This document shows, one piece after another, positions 698-37,472 of a DNA stretch of 37,472 nt. Both the position numbers and the translations under genes were made by a program. The notes under the pieces were generated by a model. The model was not told the DNA's origin, made no database searches, and worked only from the letters and a program-made list of their open reading frames with translations. The stretch lies in the IMG/VR virus record IMGVR_UViG_2561511241_000010. One strand, given 5' to 3'. Position 1 is the first letter of the stretch; every line of letters begins with the position of its first letter. The stretch is from a virus. Lineage: Duplodnaviria > Heunggongvirae > Uroviricota > Caudoviricetes.

Positions 698-1060
698 GGG
701 GCTGATTCTGGATTCGACGGGATTTGCGAAACCCAAGGTGCATGCCGAGGGGCGGTTGGCCTCGTAAAAAGCCGCAAAAAATAGTCGCAAACGACGAAAA
801 CTACGCTTTAGCAGCTTAATAACCTGCTTAGAGCCCTCTCTCCCTAGCCTCCGCTCTTAGGACGGGGATCAAGAGAGGTCAAACCCAAAAGAGATCGCGT
901 GGAAGCCCTGCCTGGGGTTGAAGCGTTAAAACTTAATCAGGCTAGTTTGTTAGTGGCGTGTCCGTCCGCAGCTGGCAAGCGAATGTAAAGACTGACTAAG
1001 CATGTAGTACCGAGGATGTAGGAATTTCGGACGCGGGTTCAACTCCCGCCAGCTCCACCA
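698..1060 (+). ncRNA. ssrA: tmRNA (transfer-messenger RNA)
   Basis: Starts GGGGCTGATTCTGGATTCGACGGG and ends with tRNA-like GGTTCAACTCCCGCCAGCTCCACCA; internal tag frame 787..819 reads ANDENYALAA then TAA; 363 nt. Confidence 0.95.
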
Positions 1061-1185
1061 CTTTTGATAGGACTGCAACCGGACAGCGGCAATAAAAACA
1101 GCCACTTACGGACACTGACCAGACAGCAGGCAGACCGAGAAAAGACAAAAATATGCACGTGAAATGCACGTGCACTTTAAAAGAA

Positions 1186-1218
1186 CCCCAGATTTCACGG
1201 TCTGGGGTTTTTCTATTT
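1186..1218 (+). terminator. Rho-independent terminator-like hairpin downstream of ssrA
   Basis: CCCCAGA-TTTCACGG-TCTGGGG stem-loop followed by TTTTT. Confidence 0.5.
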
Positions 1219-1272
1219 GTAACTAAGGGTAACAAAAAACCCTCCCCCTTTCGCGTCTCGCTCGCCTTGACA

Positions 1273-1312
1273 CTGTTTATTTTTACAGTAAAAATACTGT
1301 ATACAAACACAG
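1273..1312 (+). promoter_or_regulatory. Two tandem LexA (SOS) boxes in the dinI-like promoter
   Basis: CTGT-N8-ACAG twice: CTGTttatttttACAG (1273..1288) and CTGTatacaaacACAG (1297..1312); TTGACA at 1267..1272 lies just upstream. Confidence 0.7.
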
Positions 1313-1331
1313 TGGTTTTCCGGAGGCTTTT

Positions 1332-1640: not shown

Positions 1641-2909
1641 TTACGAACCAGATTCATTCTCCGCAGCTTCCAAAGCTTCTTCCTGTCGTTGATTCCATAC
1701 ACTGTTTTCAGGCATGTCGAGTCGCACATCGATCCAGCTATTGGCAGGAACATCTATAGGAGCCCCTTTCGTTTTAACAATTTCTCCTTCTTCGCTAAGT
1801 ATGTATTTGCGCTTAAAAAGCCGAATCGTCAGCCCACCGCTTTCTGTTTGCTCAGCTTCAACTACACCCAGTTCTCCCATTCCACCTGGGTCCATTGGCG
1901 GCAGCAGCTGCCAGCCTTCTGATGCCAGGCCTGCCGAACCAGTCAGCAAATAGATACCTACATCTAGCCGGGAAATTTTGATTCCCTCTGCCTCAGCATT
2001 AGCCGTACCGCATCCGCACCAGATAAAATCATTTTCATCAATATCTGTGCGCTGATTCTCGTTCTGAGATTTCACGATTCTGGCCACCGGCGAAGCTGCT
2101 TTCAGCGTGCCATCGGAGGCTTTAGTGGTATTTTCAGAAGTGTAAACAACTGAGCCTGGCTTCACAGACAGCATTGTTGAGAATGCATCGGTGCCATTAT
2201 TTCTTCCTGCAATCTGGTAAGAGACGGTACCACCAATCCCTGCGACACCTGCCCTGAAACGAGGAGTTCCGTTAACCATCACCGTATGAGCCCATACACT
2301 ACCAACAGTTGAAAGTCCTTCAACGGTGAAAGCGTAAGGGTTACCAGCGATACCGGCGATATTCAGGGCATTCGTTAACGTTCCTCCGCCAGTACCAAGA
2401 GCACCAAGTGCTGTTAGCGCTTCATTAGCTGTTTTCGCTCCCGTACCGCCCTGAGCGATGCTGAGAGCAGTTGTTAATCCGCTCAGGCTGGTAATGTCGC
2501 TGTTTGCCCCTTTCTTCGCCAGCGATTTCTGAGCCGGTACCGTGACGGCCACGCCGTTAATCGTGATAGTGACATCTGTAGTACCGTTCATCACATCAGC
2601 GAAGCCACTCATGTAACGCTGGTACATCGTGAACGTTTCAGCAATATCCTGTGCCAGGCCGTCAACGCTCAGGCTGTCGCTCAGAAGAATGGCGTATTTG
2701 GTTCCAGCTGGGATAGCAGGGCTTGCCGCTGGCGTAACGGTGAGACTGGTTGCGCTAACGATGGCGGTAATCTGAAAAACCTGCGCTGGACTGGTCATTG
2801 CAATAACTGTGCAGCCGTTGCGGATCAGAGAACCTGCGGCGGTAAAATTAGTACCTGTGCCGGTGATATTGTTACCACTAATAGCAATGGTGCCTGTTGT
2901 GTAAATCAT
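1641..2909 (-). CDS. Tail fibre protein
   Basis: 422 aa, Gly/Thr/Ala-rich repetitive N-terminal region typical of phage fibre shafts; last gene of the tail module; GAGGTAG ribosome-binding site. Confidence 0.6.
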   Translation of the reverse strand: MIYTTGTIAISGNNITGTGTNFTAAGSLIRNGCTVIAMTSPAQVFQITAIVSATSLTVTPAASPAIPAGTKYAILLSDSLSVDGLAQDIAETFTMYQRYMSGFADVMNGTTDVTITINGVAVTVPAQKSLAKKGANSDITSLSGLTTALSIAQGGTGAKTANEALTALGALGTGGGTLTNALNIAGIAGNPYAFTVEGLSTVGSVWAHTVMVNGTPRFRAGVAGIGGTVSYQIAGRNNGTDAFSTMLSVKPGSVVYTSENTTKASDGTLKAASPVARIVKSQNENQRTDIDENDFIWCGCGTANAEAEGIKISRLDVGIYLLTGSAGLASEGWQLLPPMDPGGMGELGVVEAEQTESGGLTIRLFKRKYILSEEGEIVKTKGAPIDVPANSWIDVRLDMPENSVWNQRQEEALEAAENESGS

Positions 2910-3035
2910 GAACTACCTCACGATAATAACGATCGTTAAAAGCGATCAATCATGTAAAATTGATCGCTCATATCAATCTGACTATTTTTTAAAATTAAAT
3001 AAAATGGAAGTTCCCGCATAAACAGGAATGTTGAA

Positions 3036-3398
3036 ATGAAACTTTTATTCGCTGCAGCGTTTTTGCTTGTGGCTGGATGTACGAACAAACACACAGATAA
3101 CGCATTCCAGATGGATTACCCGGTTGATGCCTCTCGTTTATCGCTCGGTGGTGATATTCACGTAAATATCGACTGTGCCACCAAAGAGGTGGAAGTTATT
3201 TCAGACAGTAGCAACGGAATATTCAGCCGCCATATAAAAAAAAGGTTAAGTAATATTTGCTACAATAAACCGGATAAGCTGGATGTCGTTTATCGCTTTA
3301 ATTCAGCAAAGGGCGTGAAACAAGATATGATTGCAACTCATTACCCACGAGTTCCTCCCGTGTCAAATCCCAACAAACTGAGAGATGGGGATTCTTAG
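3036..3398 (+). CDS. Lipoprotein moron, antisense to the tail operon
   Basis: N-terminus MKLLFAAAFLLVAGC is a signal peptide with lipobox; AGGAA ribosome-binding site; AT-rich upstream region; 3' end overlaps the convergent ORF 3363..4004. Confidence 0.6.
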   Translation: MKLLFAAAFLLVAGCTNKHTDNAFQMDYPVDASRLSLGGDIHVNIDCATKEVEVISDSSNGIFSRHIKKRLSNICYNKPDKLDVVYRFNSAKGVKQDMIATHYPRVPPVSNPNKLRDGDS

Positions 3399-4004
3399 CC
3401 CACGCCCCTGAAACGTCTGGCCCCAGTTGCGCTGATTATTTGAAATATATCTGCCCTGCAACTGTGATCCCGTCCACTTCAGCACTATCCCCGAATAACC
3501 GACCACCTCCCCGTCATCGCTGAGATTTCCGGGGCAGTTGTTGACCAGAATCCACGGATTAAAGCTGAGGCTCACCGATAGTGTGTTGTTTTGGAGGTCA
3601 TAGTTCGCTGGCACATCAAAGAAACCGACAACTCGGGGCATTTTTGATGCAGAAACAGCACTCCAGATGAGATTTCCGGCACTGTCGAAGACATCCAGAT
3701 ACCCGCTTTGAATTCCAATGTTACGCGCAGTGCGGATCATGCTCCCCGCGTTATCTTCAAGCAGGTCCGCACCAGGCATCCCGTATCTGTTTGCGCCAAG
3801 CTGCAGCCACCTTAATCTCCCGTCATTCCAGAATGCCTGCGGAGTGAATCCCAGGGTGCTGCCATTCCCAAATGGGCTGTCTACCTGGTAAAAACCTTTG
3901 TTGTTCACTGCGCCGAGCGTACGTTGGTCATAAAAAAGGGTGGACCTGTTTTGCGAGTCCACCAGTAATTTTCCATCGCTGTTGTAAACTTCGAATCCGC
4001 TCAT
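3363..4004 (-). CDS. Hypothetical tail-region protein
   Basis: 213-aa ORF with normal composition, coupled to the upstream ORF (4-nt overlap at 4001..4004). Confidence 0.5.
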   Translation of the reverse strand: MSGFEVYNSDGKLLVDSQNRSTLFYDQRTLGAVNNKGFYQVDSPFGNGSTLGFTPQAFWNDGRLRWLQLGANRYGMPGADLLEDNAGSMIRTARNIGIQSGYLDVFDSAGNLIWSAVSASKMPRVVGFFDVPANYDLQNNTLSVSLSFNPWILVNNCPGNLSDDGEVVGYSGIVLKWTGSQLQGRYISNNQRNWGQTFQGRGLRIPISQFVGI

Positions 4005-4303
4005 TGAAAGTTATACACCTCCACATTGAGTGTGATCGCAGGACTGCCGGTTGAGGGCAAATAGTAAGCTGTAAAACCGCCATTATAGGCGCGGCAGTGG
4101 TATTCGTTGACAGTGACGCCAGTCGACACAATTGAGATGAATGAGCCATCCTGGGTTATCCCGACGAAGGAAACGTTTTTCGACGTTTCCCCCGCAGCGA
4201 ATGTTACTGAGGTGCTTCCGATATACCGGATGGCATAATCACTCAAATCAACCGCTATGCGCCCTGCACTGTCCCAGCATTGCAACCCCTGTGGCATTAC
4301 CAT
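4001..4303 (-). CDS. Hypothetical protein downstream of J
   Basis: 100-aa ORF overlapping the J stop (4297..4303) and the next ORF. Confidence 0.45.
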   Translation of the reverse strand: MVMPQGLQCWDSAGRIAVDLSDYAIRYIGSTSVTFAAGETSKNVSFVGITQDGSFISIVSTGVTVNEYHCRAYNGGFTAYYLPSTGSPAITLNVEVYNFQ

Positions 4304-8128: not shown

Positions 8129-8155
8129 CCATAAAAAAAGCCACCCGAAGGTGGC
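8129..8155 (-). repeat. 27-nt hairpin plus T7 element, copy 1 (between I and J)
   Basis: Minus strand reads GCCACCTTCGGGTGGC-TTTTTTT-ATGG; identical to 8784..8810. Confidence 0.7.
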
Positions 8156-8174: not shown

Positions 8175-8774
8175 CTACTGCTGATCTTCGACATAAATTC
8201 CGGCAGAAATAATCGCTCCGCCTATCCGCCGGCGGCCATATAGGAGCGGAACTGGATAGCCTTGCGCCGCGGTGTTTGTTACACCACCGAATGCGTAGGA
8301 TGCGCGGTTATCTGCGCTTTGTTTGCTTGCCAGACCTGCAGGTTGAGGAGATAGCATTTGGACAACGCCTCCCAGCATCATGGCTGCACCGAATTTCGCA
8401 GCCCCGTACCCCACCGCTGATAGAGTGCCGCCTGAGAAATAGCCAATGGCTACCCCAACAACGACGAGCACGGCGCCAAGAATTGTCTGTAATACCCCGG
8501 CTTTTTTACTTCCGATTACCACCGGGACAATTCGAATAACTTCACCGGTTACCGGAAAACCAAAATCATCCTTTCCGATATTTTTTTTATCTTTAAAAAC
8601 GGCGTAAGTCAGGCCCCTTGCTTTGCTGGTGATCAGGAATTTCTCCAGCCCGTTTATAGTTTTTGTAAGAGAGTTGATCGCCTCAGCGGTTGTGCGTATT
8701 AATCGATGGTGAACCTTTCCATAGGTTTTACCCAAAACACCGCCAAGCTCAATTCGGGTCATGACCTCTGACAT
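8175..8774 (-). CDS. I: Tail assembly protein I
   Basis: 199 aa with Gly/Ala-rich hydrophobic C-terminal half like lambda gpI; position between K and J. Confidence 0.85.
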   Translation of the reverse strand: MSEVMTRIELGGVLGKTYGKVHHRLIRTTAEAINSLTKTINGLEKFLITSKARGLTYAVFKDKKNIGKDDFGFPVTGEVIRIVPVVIGSKKAGVLQTILGAVLVVVGVAIGYFSGGTLSAVGYGAAKFGAAMMLGGVVQMLSPQPAGLASKQSADNRASYAFGGVTNTAAQGYPVPLLYGRRRIGGAIISAGIYVEDQQ

Positions 8775-8783
8775 TTTCTTTCT

Positions 8784-8810
8784 CCATAAAAAAAGCCACC
8801 CGAAGGTGGC
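8784..8810 (-). repeat. 27-nt hairpin plus T7 element, copy 2 (upstream of I)
   Basis: Exact copy of the 8129..8155 element; sits between the lipoprotein stop and the I start. Confidence 0.7.
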
Positions 8811-28381: not shown

Positions 28382-28521
28382 AGTGACTTTCCTTTTAGCG
28401 GGTGAGCCAGCGCTCAGGAATGATCAGCCCACAGAGACAGTCACACCGACCGTTCCCTATGGCTCACCCCTGAAAGGCTCTGTGGTTGGATTGCGCCGAG
28501 CGTGGCGCGAAGAATTACAGG

Positions 28522-28550
28522 CATAAAAAAACCCGCGCTGAGGCGGGTTT
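28522..28550 (-). terminator. tR'-like rho-independent terminator downstream of the Q-like gene
   Basis: Minus strand AAACCCGCC-TCAGC-GCGGGTTT followed by TTTTTTAT, about 90 nt after the Q-like stop. Confidence 0.55.
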
Positions 28551-35861: not shown

Positions 35862-36146
35862 ATGAAAAAGCCAGTTTTAGAAGTTATTAAGCGTTGGAGA
35901 CGTTTAGCAACGGAGGCCAAGCAGCTGAAGCTCGCCACCATCCCTATCGACCCGGAAAATATGCTGATGGTGCTGGGGGAACTTCCAACCAGTGAAGACT
36001 ATCAGGCTGCAATCGATTTTTTACGCAAGAGAGCGGCCAGCGAACTTGATGGCGGTTTTAGAGCGCACCACAACGCACTTATCTATGCGGCAAATGAACT
36101 GGAAAATGCCCAGGCATTTGGGCGGGAGGTCGGTCATGAGTCTTGA
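35862..36146 (+). CDS. Hypothetical protein
   Basis: 94-aa ORF with plausible spacing; overlaps the xis start by 11 nt. Confidence 0.45.
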   Translation: MKKPVLEVIKRWRRLATEAKQLKLATIPIDPENMLMVLGELPTSEDYQAAIDFLRKRAASELDGGFRAHHNALIYAANELENAQAFGREVGHES

Positions 36147-36345
36147 TTGCGTACCTCTTTCAACCTACTGCCGGGACGCCGGAGAAACGGTTGAAGCCGT
36201 TAACAAACGGATACAAAGGGGGTTATGGAAAGAGGGTGTCCATGTATTAAAAGTCGATGGCGTTAAAGAACGCTGGATAGACTTAACGGAGGTTTCAAAG
36301 TGGGCAAGAAAGAACAAGGATCATTATCTCTCCCAAGAGGAGTGA
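36136..36345 (+). CDS. xis: Excisionase
   Basis: Start at internal Met 36136 (GGGAGG ribosome-binding site); 69 aa; resembles lambda Xis in its winged-helix segment; overlaps the int start. Confidence 0.6.
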   Translation: MSLDCVPLSTYCRDAGETVEAVNKRIQRGLWKEGVHVLKVDGVKERWIDLTEVSKWARKNKDHYLSQEE

Positions 36346-37472
36346 CCATTCGCCAGCATAAAACTGGCGATACCCTGGTGATCACATTCACCTACAAGGG
36401 GGTTCTCTGCCGGGAGCCCCTTTCCAGAATGGAAGCAAACGCGCGCGGCGTGAAGTATGCCGAGCGCCTGCTGGGGGAGATACAGAACCAGATCGCCGGC
36501 GGCACATTCGATTATGCGAAATACTTCCCCACCTCCAAAAAACTGGAGCTGTTCGGGGTAGTGAAGAAAACCAAAAATATTAAGTCCTACCTGGACGAGT
36601 ATCTGAAAATCTGCCAGAACCGCAACCTTTCGCCGTCCACTATTGGCGGTTATGAAAAGTGCCTGTCTGCGCTATCTGCGCTGCACAAAATGCATGTCTC
36701 GGAACTGACCCCTGCGGTCCTCAAAAACTGGATCGCCAGCAGAAAAACAAAGCTGAAAACGATCAGGAATAACCTCTCGTTTCTGCGCAGCGCCATAGAT
36801 GAAGCGGTGACAGACGGCCTGCTGACTATCAACCCGGTAACCCTTGTCAGCGCGAGTCGGTACCACGTGATCGACAGCAGCCCGAATAGTGACGATTACG
36901 AAGTTGATCCGTTCACACCAGCGGAAATCAGCGCTATTTACCAGAGCTGCAGATACCAAGAGTGGGAAAACCTGTTCCGTTTCGCATTCAATACTGGTTT
37001 ACGCAGCTCTGAGCTGTGTGCGTTGCGCTGGCCTGATCTCGACAATATCGCTAAAACAGCTCACGTTCAGGCGGCAAGTGTTGTTGGCGTTCTGAAAGGT
37101 ACCAAAACAAAAGCCGGTACCCGTAAAGTAGAATTAAACAGCGAGGCGCTGGCCGCGCTGCAGACGCAGAAACAATTCACTTTCATGAAAAGCGAGTTTA
37201 TTTTCAGCGATCCCAAAACGGGTGAGCCCTGGGCGAACGCCGACGCGATACGAAAAAAAGCATGGGTGCCAACCCTCAAAAAAGCTGGCGTTCGATACCG
37301 TAACCCGTACCAGACCCGCCACACATTCGCCACCAGACACATTAGCCAGGGCGTAAACCTTTTCTGGCTTGCCGGGCAGATGGGGCATAAAGGGCCGGAA
37401 ATGCTGTTCCGCAATTACGGTAAATACCTGGCTGAATACGACGGGAAAACCGCCATTTCTGCAGCTCTGTAG
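36300..37472 (+). CDS. int: Tyrosine integrase
   Basis: 390 aa; C-terminal catalytic region with RHTFATRHISQG and LAGQMGH...Y motifs; stop codon is the last three bases of the window. Confidence 0.9.
   Translation: MGKKEQGSLSLPRGVTIRQHKTGDTLVITFTYKGVLCREPLSRMEANARGVKYAERLLGEIQNQIAGGTFDYAKYFPTSKKLELFGVVKKTKNIKSYLDEYLKICQNRNLSPSTIGGYEKCLSALSALHKMHVSELTPAVLKNWIASRKTKLKTIRNNLSFLRSAIDEAVTDGLLTINPVTLVSASRYHVIDSSPNSDDYEVDPFTPAEISAIYQSCRYQEWENLFRFAFNTGLRSSELCALRWPDLDNIAKTAHVQAASVVGVLKGTKTKAGTRKVELNSEALAALQTQKQFTFMKSEFIFSDPKTGEPWANADAIRKKAWVPTLKKAGVRYRNPYQTRHTFATRHISQGVNLFWLAGQMGHKGPEMLFRNYGKYLAEYDGKTAISAAL

What the first reader, a model, noticed from the sequence alone, without database searches (positions are those of the whole stretch)
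1061..1331. Tandem ATGCACGTG repeat near ssrA: candidate integrase arm sites and prophage boundary
Seen in sequence: ATGCACGTG occurs twice in tandem (1153..1161 and 1164..1172) about 100 nt beyond the tmRNA 3' end, followed by a terminator hairpin. Established knowledge: ssrA is a frequent phage integration site, and in a lambda-type layout the tail-end junction carries the arm with direct-repeat Int sites. The integrase lies at the other end and its junction is outside the window, so the attachment core cannot be confirmed here.
Basis: partly seen in the sequence, partly recalled or inferred. Interest (0 to 1): 0.4.

Follow-up and report, generated by a model that had tools for sequence, protein, structure and literature searches.

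The report
Integrase arm sites beside ssrA
The doubled ATGCACGTG next to the tmRNA gene is very probably a pair of docking sites for the prophage's own integrase, marking one exact end of an ordinary lambda-like prophage inserted into ssrA.

Summary
ATGCACGTG occurs at 1153-1161 and 1164-1172, 11 bp apart and 93 nt past the tmRNA 3' end, and a terminator follows at 1181-1212.

- The window's last 2.5 kb is identical to E. coli ETEC1749. There, 133 nt beyond the integrase stop codon, lies a 27-nt direct repeat of the ssrA 3' end.
- The empty site, ssrA joined directly to that flank, exists in about 1,400 E. coli genomes.
- The free phage LMessi carries the contiguous attP.
- The integrase-side arm carries the same tandem motif (ATGCACGTAaaATGCACTTG) with the same spacing and orientation.
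- The integrase has an N-terminal arm-binding domain (Pfam PF12167).
- The motif sits at fixed distances from the core (-81 and +115) in every relative examined, while the flanks diverge.
- A sister integrase clade (~68% identical, same core, collinear arms) has a different 3-bp half-site at exactly these positions.

Two further features: both arms are 11-bp phased arrays (RGAC units followed by the two sites), and both carry IHF-like sites.

This is a lambda-type intasome arm. The sites seem undescribed for this integrase subgroup, but the kind is well known. Binding by Int, rather than by Xis, is inferred and not shown.

The parts
698..1060 (+). ssrA (tmRNA) gene. Its 3' end is the attachment target.
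   Evidence: ARAGORN and Rfam RF00023.
1034..1060 (.). attL copy of the 27-nt core identity block (CGGGTTCAACTCCCGCCAGCTCCACCA). The strand-exchange point must lie within it.
   Evidence: An identical 27-mer lies 133-159 nt beyond the window end in ETEC1749. Position 1033 is G in attL and attB but A in attR and attP.
1061..1180 (+). Integrase-distal arm of attP (phage DNA), now the 3' trailer of ssrA.
   Evidence: Contiguous with the integrase-side arm in free phage LMessi. Absent from empty-site E. coli genomes.
1070..1084 (+). Core-proximal GGAC pair spaced 11 bp apart (GGACtgcaaccGGAC).
   Evidence: Sequence. Invariant across both integrase clades in alignment A1.
1096..1108 (+). IHF-like site AAACAGCCACTTA, one mismatch to WATCARNNNNTTR.
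   Evidence: AAA-ACAG--A-TTA is invariant in alignment A1. Function is inferred.
1110..1152 (+). Four RGAC units in 11-bp phase (GGAC 1110, AGAC 1121, 1132, 1143), in register with the two sites.
   Evidence: 23 of 28 GAC trinucleotides in diverged right arms fall in a single phase.
1153..1163 (+). Arm-type site 1 (ATGCACGTGaa).
1164..1174 (+). Arm-type site 2 (ATGCACGTGca). An inverted near-copy, GTGCAC, overlaps its 3' end.
1181..1212 (+). Phage-supplied intrinsic terminator that now ends the ssrA transcription unit. It probably also stops leftward late transcription.
   Evidence: (14 pairs plus T-run). Present in all right arms.
36136..36345 (+). xis (excisionase, 69 aa), overlapping the start of int.
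   Evidence: PHROG 2917 excisionase, E 2.1e-40. CDS annotated in ETEC1749.
36300..37472 (+). int, a 390-aa tyrosine integrase with an N-terminal arm-binding domain. Its stop codon is the last codon of the window.
   Evidence: Pfam PF12167 residues 12-80, E 6.6e-20, and PF00589. PHROG 1. Closest PDB sequences are the Tn1549 and lambda Int.

Best explanation
Window 1061-1180 is the integrase-distal arm of the attP site of a lambda-like prophage that recombined into the last 27 nt of ssrA. The two ATGCACGTG units are arm-type binding sites for the N-terminal domain of the prophage's own integrase (window 36300-37472). A second pair of the same units lies 56-75 nt beyond the window end on the integrase-proximal arm, which gives four sites for the four subunits of an integrase tetramer.

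Inferred mechanism, by analogy with lambda: each Int molecule holds an arm site with its N-domain and a core site with its C-terminal domains. The likely core sites are the CGGG/CCCG T-stem repeat around TTCAACT. IHF-like sites on each arm bend the DNA so that arm and core can be bridged. The phased RGAC units next to the sites most plausibly take Xis or further weak Int contacts.

After integration the arm also has a housekeeping role: it supplies the 3' trailer and terminator of ssrA.

Shown: the boundary, the core repeat, the motif on both arms, its conservation and fixed geometry, its covariation with integrase clade, and the integrase domain architecture. Inferred: which protein binds which repeat.
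For: (a) Boundary and core. A 27-nt direct repeat lies beyond int, the empty site is found in 1,389 E. coli genomes, and LMessi has the contiguous attP.

(b) Same motif on both arms. In LMessi attP, ATGCACGT with at most one mismatch occurs five times in 360 nt against 0.2 expected. Tandem pairs lie at -81/-70 and +115/+126 relative to TTCAAC, all on the same strand, plus one overlapping inverted copy.

(c) The integrase has an arm-binding domain, PF12167. This places it in the IntBPP-1 subgroup described in PMC8138268.

(d) Conservation tested without selecting on the motif:
- Every left arm recovered through the integrase protein, 45 unique sequences, has the pair at a fixed distance, while the stretch between the sites and the core is variable.
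- 42 of 42 genuine right arms recovered through an anchor 84 nt upstream have the pair at the same offset.
- Strongly diverged arms (L149, L181, left-arm classes C-E) keep the motif and its position.

(e) Covariation. Integrases about 68% identical (LLS, phiNP, Kp4866-6 and 27 unique IMG/VR left arms) use the same ssrA core and collinear, homologous arms. At these two units they read RG(A/C)(T/G)(A/C)CGYAAA instead of ATGCACGTAAA: the ACGYAAA half is shared and the 5' half is clade-specific. Their N-domain is the most diverged part of the protein (57-61% identity against 70-73% for the catalytic domain).

(f) xis-int pair at the prophage end and IHF-like sites on both arms.
Against: - No binding data exist, so the assignment of the ATGCAC units to Int rather than to Xis or another factor rests on analogy.
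- Xis also differs between the two clades (about 70% identity), so the covariation does not discriminate between Int and Xis.
- The N-domain is only modestly more diverged than the rest of Int.
- Two clade-B loci carry mixed units (L286, L298), so the clade/motif correspondence is not absolute.
- Right arms of the window's clade are about 85-90% identical overall, so conservation there is weak evidence on its own.
- The right-arm pair can also fold as a hairpin.
- Both pairs have the same orientation, unlike the inverted P and P' sites of lambda (from memory).
Confidence: 0.8

Rival explanations
1. The ATGCAC units are binding sites for the excisionase (Xis/RDF) or another accessory protein. 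The integrase N-domain instead recognises the phased RGAC units or something else.
For: Tandem direct repeats one helical turn apart are typical of RDF filaments (established knowledge for lambda, P22 and L5 Xis, from memory). An excisionase gene is present and also differs between the two clades. RGAC units are phase-locked on both arms.
Against: RDF sites are normally confined to one arm, whereas here identical pairs lie on both arms. Two plus two sites match an integrase tetramer. RGAC is unchanged between clades although the Int N-domain changes, whereas the ATGCAC half-site changes.
Confidence: 0.12
2. The right-arm repeat acts mainly as a hairpin. It would serve as a second terminator or insulator against leftward late (tail-gene) transcription entering ssrA, or as a structure in the ssrA 3' trailer. 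The direct-repeat character would then be incidental.
For: An 8-bp stem (1154-1161 with 1167-1174) appears in the minimum-free-energy fold. The scan calls it terminator-like on the minus strand, followed by ATTTTTGTCTTTT.
Against: The left-arm pair (ATGCACGTAaaATGCACTTG) cannot form the stem. Diverged right arms L181, L192, L246 and L149 read ATGCACGCG in copy 2, which puts an A-C mismatch in the stem with no compensating change. Clade B arms have no such palindrome at this place. It could still be a secondary role.
Confidence: 0.05
3. Chance repeat, or an operator for a regulator of the adjacent dinI-like gene.
For: About 0.5 such exact tandem 9-mers are expected per random 37-kb window. The repeat lies about 100 nt upstream of the dinI promoter.
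Against: Position and sequence are conserved in all relatives, and the motif recurs on the other arm about 36 kb away, far from any dinI gene. phiES15 keeps the repeat but has no dinI gene after it. dinI already has its own LexA boxes.
Confidence: 0.02

Closest known systems
Bacteriophage lambda attP / Int / Xis / IHF intasome
   Same: Heterobivalent tyrosine integrase with a separate N-terminal arm-binding domain. Arm-type repeats on both arms and unrelated to the core. Adjacent arm sites about one helical turn apart (as for P'1-P'3). IHF-like sites between arm sites and core. xis-int at the prophage end with int pointing outward. Arm sites about 60-80 bp (int side) and about 115-135 bp (far side) from the core, similar to P' and P1 (lambda coordinates from memory).
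   Different: A different arm-binding domain family (PF12167, not lambda's PF09003; only residues 93-247 align with lambda Int). A different site sequence. A 2+2 arrangement with all sites in one orientation. The target is the 3' end of a tmRNA gene rather than an intergenic site. RGAC units in 11-bp phase flank the sites on both arms.
IntBPP-1 subgroup of tyrosine recombinases (DUF3596/PF12167 arm-binding domain; BPP-1, Stx2a phage and Gifsy-2 integrases; PMC8138268)
   Same: Domain architecture: PF12167 + SAM-like + catalytic. 933W/Min27, BIP-1 and phiCTX integrases are 28-33% identical.
   Different: That paper calls the members putative integrases, and no arm-site description for the subgroup was found in the searched library. 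The present sites are a prediction for one branch of it.
Phage LLS and relatives (phiNP, Kp4866-6): the sister integrase clade at ssrA
   Same: Same 27-29 nt ssrA core, collinear homologous arms, same site positions and 11-bp spacing, homologous Xis. The LLS paper deduced attP only as the 29-bp ssrA identity (PMC12315714).
   Different: Integrase about 68% identical. The 5' half of each unit differs (GAT/GAG/GCT/GCG instead of TGC).
CP4-57 IntA and other P4-type elements at ssrA
   Same: Same target gene in E. coli.
   Different: An unrelated integrase lineage: the LLS paper reports 17% identity between IntA and LLS Int. In CP4-57, int lies next to ssrA rather than at the far end (established knowledge of the K-12 map).
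Mycobacteriophage L5 attP (pairs of arm-type sites P1/P2 and P4/P5)
   Same: Arm sites used as adjacent pairs on both arms, and phased Xis sites next to an arm pair (from memory, not tested here).
   Different: Unrelated integrase branch, host and core. tRNA target.

Membership tests
Prophage integrated by site-specific recombination into the 3' end of ssrA | Direct repeat of the ssrA 3' end at both junctions | tested here: met
   27-nt identity between window 1034-1060 and the sequence 133-159 nt past the window end in the identical ETEC1749 sequence.
Prophage integrated by site-specific recombination into the 3' end of ssrA | Empty site in other strains that equals attL-left joined to attR-right | tested here: met
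   A 460-nt reconstructed attB is contiguous at 100% identity. 1,389 genomes have at least 80% coverage in one place.
Prophage integrated by site-specific recombination into the 3' end of ssrA | Free phage carrying the contiguous attP (int arm, core, far arm) | tested here: met
   Phage LMessi PP925823, Int 98.7% identical. Also IMG/VR loci L028, L042 and L110.
Lambda-type (heterobivalent) integrase attP with arm-type sites | Integrase has a distinct N-terminal arm-binding domain | tested here: met
   PF12167, 71.3 bits against a cut-off of 22, residues 12-80.
Lambda-type (heterobivalent) integrase attP with arm-type sites | A repeated motif, different from the core, on both arms | tested here: met
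   Pairs at -81/-70 and +115/+126, five hits against 0.2 expected. Left arm in ETEC1749.
Lambda-type (heterobivalent) integrase attP with arm-type sites | Motif and position conserved among relatives and changing with integrase specificity | tested here: met
   conservation; clade-specific half-site. Caveats: Xis changes as well, and two loci carry mixed units.
Lambda-type (heterobivalent) integrase attP with arm-type sites | Integrase N-domain physically binds the motif | not testable with these tools
   Needs EMSA or footprinting.
Lambda-type (heterobivalent) integrase attP with arm-type sites | Inverted core-type sites flanking a 6-8 bp overlap | tested here: inconclusive
   CGGG-TTCAACT-CCCG (the tmRNA T-arm) lies inside the identity block. 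The cleavage positions are not known.
Lambda-type (heterobivalent) integrase attP with arm-type sites | Accessory bending-protein (IHF) sites and an RDF gene | tested here: met
   IHF consensus matches at window 1096-1108 (1 mismatch) and on the left arm at -32..-20 (1 mismatch) and -107..-95 (0 mismatches). Excisionase PHROG 2917. These are consensus matches only.
Rho-independent terminator (1181-1212) | G+C-rich hairpin followed by a T-run | tested here: met
   14 pairs, 5 of them G-C, then TTTTTCTATTT. Present in the minimum-free-energy fold, z = -6.05 for the trailer.

The most novel reading that the evidence does not exclude
Both arms of this attP may be iteron-like arrays of 11-bp units: two to four RGAC units followed, in phase, by two high-specificity units. 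In this reading they nucleate the same Int/Xis filament on either side of the core, a more symmetrical intasome than lambda's. Two natural integrase clades share one attB core but read different 3-bp half-sites (TGC versus GMK). They would then form a ready-made pair of arm-orthogonal integrases at a single chromosomal site. The E. coli 'native' ssrA flank, a fossil clade-B arm, could bias which clade can integrate or excise there.
Probability: 0.2. Interest if true: 0.5.

Novelty: new member of a known kind. Interest (0 to 1): 0.3.

Why it matters
It fixes the exact left boundary of this 36.5-kb prophage. It also explains the sequence between ssrA and the first phage gene as functional recombination DNA that doubles as the tmRNA gene's trailer and terminator.

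It gives a concrete, testable arm-site prediction (ATGCACGTRAA, 2+2, positions -81/-70 and +115/+126) for a widespread enterobacterial integrase family. That family includes prophages of ETEC and EHEC strains and the Stx1 prophage CP-1639. I found no description of arm sites for this family or its arm-binding domain subgroup.

The two clades, with one core and different arm half-sites, could be useful for engineering orthogonal integration systems. None of this changes the general picture of lambda-type site-specific recombination.

Tried and rejected
- **Chance.** The repeat alone is not significant window-wide (0.48 expected). Chance was rejected only after the comparative evidence.
- **Rfam.** Nothing but tmRNA in the window at gathering thresholds.
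- **Hairpin or terminator reading of the repeat**. Rejected as the primary role because the stem is not kept in L181 or L149 and is absent from the left arm and from clade B.
- **ORF 1153-1368 (71 aa)**, which starts at the ATG of copy 1. It runs through the terminator and the LexA boxes, and relatives have indels here (8-nt insertion in L181, alignment A1). Not a gene.
- **Minus-strand ORF 996-1601** (annotated as hypothetical in LMessi). It overlaps ssrA, attP and dinI, so it is spurious.
- **Pattern scan ATGCACNNRAAATGCAC in viral contigs**. 86 of 120 hits lacked an ssrA core nearby and are probably chance. Only the 34 with a core were used, and these are biased by construction, so anchor-based and integrase-based sets were used for the conservation claims.
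- **Pfam search of the Xis candidate** gave nothing at E < 0.01 when the longer 117-aa frame was used. PHROGs identified the 69-aa CDS.
- **Literature searches** for arm sites of ssrA-integrating lambdoid phages or of DUF3596 integrases found no description. The library is limited to open-access papers.
- **Int versus Xis by clade comparison.** Tried, but both proteins differ between clades, so it is uninformative.

Full report
**What is in the window**

- smpB occupies 1-483.
- The tmRNA gene ssrA occupies 698-1060 on the + strand (ARAGORN, tag peptide ANDENYALAA; Rfam RF00023, 295.8 bits).
- From 1061 onward the DNA is a lambda-like prophage. It starts with a DinI-family gene (1332-1598, Pfam PF06183), followed by leftward tail, head, terminase and lysis genes (ORF sizes).
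- It ends with a 69-aa excisionase (36136-36345, PHROG 2917, E 2.1e-40) and a 390-aa tyrosine integrase (36300-37472) whose stop codon is the last codon of the window.

**The observation**

ATGCACGTG is at 1153-1161 and 1164-1172, a period of 11 bp, starting 93 nt after the tmRNA 3' end. A strong hairpin plus T-run follows at 1181-1212.

ATGCACKT occurs nowhere else in the window. An exact 9-mer repeated at an offset of 9-12 nt is expected 0.48 times per random window, and 0.0034 times in the named 271 nt. The sequence alone is therefore suggestive and no more.

**Prophage boundary**

- Window 600-1640 matches E. coli ETEC1749 (NZ_CP122712) at 100%, and the last 2,500 nt of the window are identical to it as well. 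That genome can therefore stand in for the missing continuation.
- Beyond the integrase stop the sequence reads ...GGACACGGGTTCAACTCCCGCCAGCTCCACCA, followed by a flank that runs into ypjA. The 27-mer CGGGTTCAACTCCCGCCAGCTCCACCA repeats window 1034-1060 exactly.
- One position upstream, attL and attB have G whereas attR and the free-phage attP have A. The exchange point therefore lies inside 1034-1060.
- Joining ssrA directly to the attR flank gives a 460-nt sequence that is contiguous at 100% identity in many E. coli genomes. It reaches at least 80% coverage in one place in 1,389 genomes.
- Phage LLS aside, the free phage LMessi (Int 98.7% identical) carries int, left arm, core and right arm contiguously.

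**The repeat is on both arms**

On the integrase-proximal arm, 56-75 nt past the window end, the sequence is ATGCACGTAaaATGCACTTG, with the same period and the same strand. In the complete LMessi attP, ATGCACGT with at most one mismatch occurs five times in 360 nt against 0.2 expected. The hits are two tandem pairs at -81/-70 and +115/+126 relative to the TTCAAC of the core, plus an inverted near-copy overlapping the last unit.

**The integrase can read arm sites**

- Residues 12-80 match Pfam Arm-DNA-bind_2 (PF12167, formerly DUF3596) at 71.3 bits against a cut-off of 22. SAM-like and catalytic domains follow.
- This architecture defines the IntBPP-1 subgroup of Smyshlyaev et al. (PMC8138268).
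- The closest solved sequences are the Tn1549 and lambda integrases, aligned only over the core-binding and catalytic parts.

**Conservation, tested without selecting on the motif**

- *Left arms, found through the integrase protein.* 80 IMG/VR loci with Int at least 90% identical were recovered. Every one that reaches the arm has the pair, and 45 unique arms align with ATGCAC...ATGCAC essentially invariant. The about 35 nt between the sites and an IHF-like TTCAATnnGTTA are highly variable.
- *Loci with an insertion.* Where about 1.4 kb has been inserted between int and attP, the pair travels with attP.
- *Right arms, found through the anchor AGGACTRCAACCGGACA, 84 nt upstream of the repeat.* 42 of 42 genuine arms, representing 57 loci, have the pair at the same offset. 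Variants are ATACACGTG, ATGCACGTA and ATACACGCA in copy 1, and ATGCACGCG and GTGCACGTG in copy 2.
- *Strongly diverged arms.* These keep both the motif and its position (L149, L181, left-arm classes C-E). They were found with a pattern that contains the motif, so only their geometry and flanks count as evidence.

**Covariation with the integrase**

Three phages have integrases about 68% identical to this one: LLS, phiNP and Kp4866-6.

- They use the same ssrA core, and their arms are collinear and homologous with those here (alignment A1).
- At the two unit positions they read, for example, GATACGCAAAG GAGCCGCGGCT (LLS right arm) and GAGCCGTAAAG GATCCGCAGAA (Kp4866-6 left arm).
- An integrase-selected set of this clade gave 27 unique left-arm unit pairs with consensus RG(A/C)(T/G)(A/C)CGYAAA, against ATGCACGTAAA in the window's clade.
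- The 3' half (ACGYAAA) is shared and the 5' three bases are clade-specific.
- The Int N-domain is the most diverged region between the clades (57-61% identity, against 64-67% for the core-binding part and 70-73% for the catalytic part).

Two caveats apply. Xis also differs between the clades (about 70% identity). Two clade-B loci have one unit of each kind (L286, L298).

**Further anatomy of the arms**

- *Phased RGAC units.* Written in rows of 11 nt registered on the sites, both arms show RGAC at the start of the two to four rows before the sites. In the window these are GGAC 1110, then AGAC 1121, 1132 and 1143, then TGCAC 1154 and 1165. On the left arm there are three GGAC units followed by two TGCAC.
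- *Strength of the phasing.* Across diverged arms, 23 of 28 GAC trinucleotides (right arms) and 15 of 22 (left arms) fall in a single phase. RGAC is common to both integrase clades.
- *Core-proximal pair.* A second GGAC pair 11 bp apart lies next to the core (1070-1084).
- *IHF-like sites.* Matches to WATCARNNNNTTR lie at 1096-1108 (1 mismatch, invariant core in alignment A1) and on the left arm at -32..-20 (1 mismatch) and -107..-95 (0 mismatches).

**Most likely mechanism**

This is a lambda-type intasome. Four Int protomers each hold one ATGCAC unit through the N-domain and a core half-site through the C-terminal domains. The core half-sites are probably the CGGG/CCCG T-stem repeat around TTCAACT. 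IHF bends each arm. Xis, or extra weak Int contacts, occupy the phased RGAC units and set the direction of the reaction.

The steps that are shown are the boundary, the core repeat, the site distribution, the conservation, the clade-specific half-site and the protein domains. The assignment of proteins to repeats and the position of strand exchange are inferred. I put the Int arm-site reading at about 0.8.

**Rival explanations**

- Xis, not Int, binds the ATGCAC units (about 0.12). This cannot be excluded without binding data. It is disfavoured because the pairs are on both arms and number four.
- The right-arm pair works as a hairpin or terminator (8-bp stem). The stem is absent from the left arm and from clade B, and it is broken without compensation in L181 and L149, so it is at most a secondary role (about 0.05).
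- Chance, or a dinI operator. The comparative data effectively exclude both.

**Side role of the arm**

Integration replaces the native downstream region of ssrA. The phage arm therefore now provides the 3' trailer and the terminator (1181-1212). The trailer folds well below shuffled controls (z = -6.05).

**Comparison with what is known**

The closest paradigm is lambda attP/Int/Xis/IHF, and the closest relatives are the IntBPP-1/DUF3596 integrases. The LLS paper deduced its attP only as the 29-bp ssrA identity (PMC12315714). Five full-text searches found no description of arm sites for these phages or for this domain family.

The finding is therefore a new, well-supported member of a well-known kind. 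It is useful for annotation and for engineering, and it is not surprising to a specialist.

Noticed in passing
window 1267-1312 and 1332-1598: Two perfect LexA-box cores (CTGT-N8-ACAG at 1273-1288 and 1297-1312; 0.3 expected per window) overlap a TTGACA/-10 promoter-like site at 1267-1295, just upstream of a DinI-family gene. This looks like an SOS-controlled moron at the prophage end. phi80 has an annotated equivalent (dinL with a LexA feature).
   Followed up: partly
L001 minus strand 4959-4800 (ETEC1749, just beyond attR); compare L252 3293-3450: The 'native' E. coli sequence between ssrA and ypjA is collinear with, and close to, the right arm of phage LLS (the sister integrase clade), including phased RGAC units and GATACGCAAAG GAGCCGCGGCT at the site positions. 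It looks like a fossil phage arm, perhaps kept because it supplies the ssrA terminator. About 1,400 E. coli genomes have it directly after ssrA.
   Followed up: partly
L149 8069-9500: A P2-like 338-aa integrase is followed by about 45 nt of ssrA 3' end and then a very diverged right arm that still has AAATGCACGTGAAATGCACGCGCAC at the usual distance. Its own left arm has a different tandem repeat (ATTAGCAGCT twice). This is either tandem elements at ssrA or another fossil arm. The organism was not identified.
   Followed up: no
L054, L056, L061, L071 and others (downstream of int, about 2670-4100): In some relatives about 1.4 kb, including a minus-strand ORF and a terminator, is inserted between the int stop codon and the left arm of attP. 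The arm sites stay with attP, not with int.
   Followed up: no
L286 and L298, left arm: Two sister-clade loci carry one window-type unit (ATGCACGTG or GTGCACGTT) next to one clade-B unit (GGGTACGTA or TGATACGCA). They may be recombinant or transitional arms.
   Followed up: no
window 8129-8155 and 8784-8810: An identical 27-nt sequence, CCATAAAAAAAGCCACCCGAAGGTGGC (hairpin plus A-run, terminator-like on the minus strand), occurs twice, bracketing the 199-aa minus-strand ORF 8175-8774. A third, 70% copy lies at 28521-28547.
   Followed up: no
L002 3984-4574 (phage LMessi PP925823 annotation): The public record annotates a minus-strand 'hypothetical protein' across attP, the terminator and the dinI region, and does not annotate dinI. 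This is probably a mis-call.
   Followed up: no
L005, L007, L014, L020, L031, L036, L048 (attR core copies): Several prophage attR junctions in other hosts read ...CGCCAGCCCACCA or ...CGCCAGCCCAAAA instead of ...CGCCAGCTCCACCA. These are small deletions or changes in the displaced, non-functional 3' ssrA fragment.
   Followed up: no
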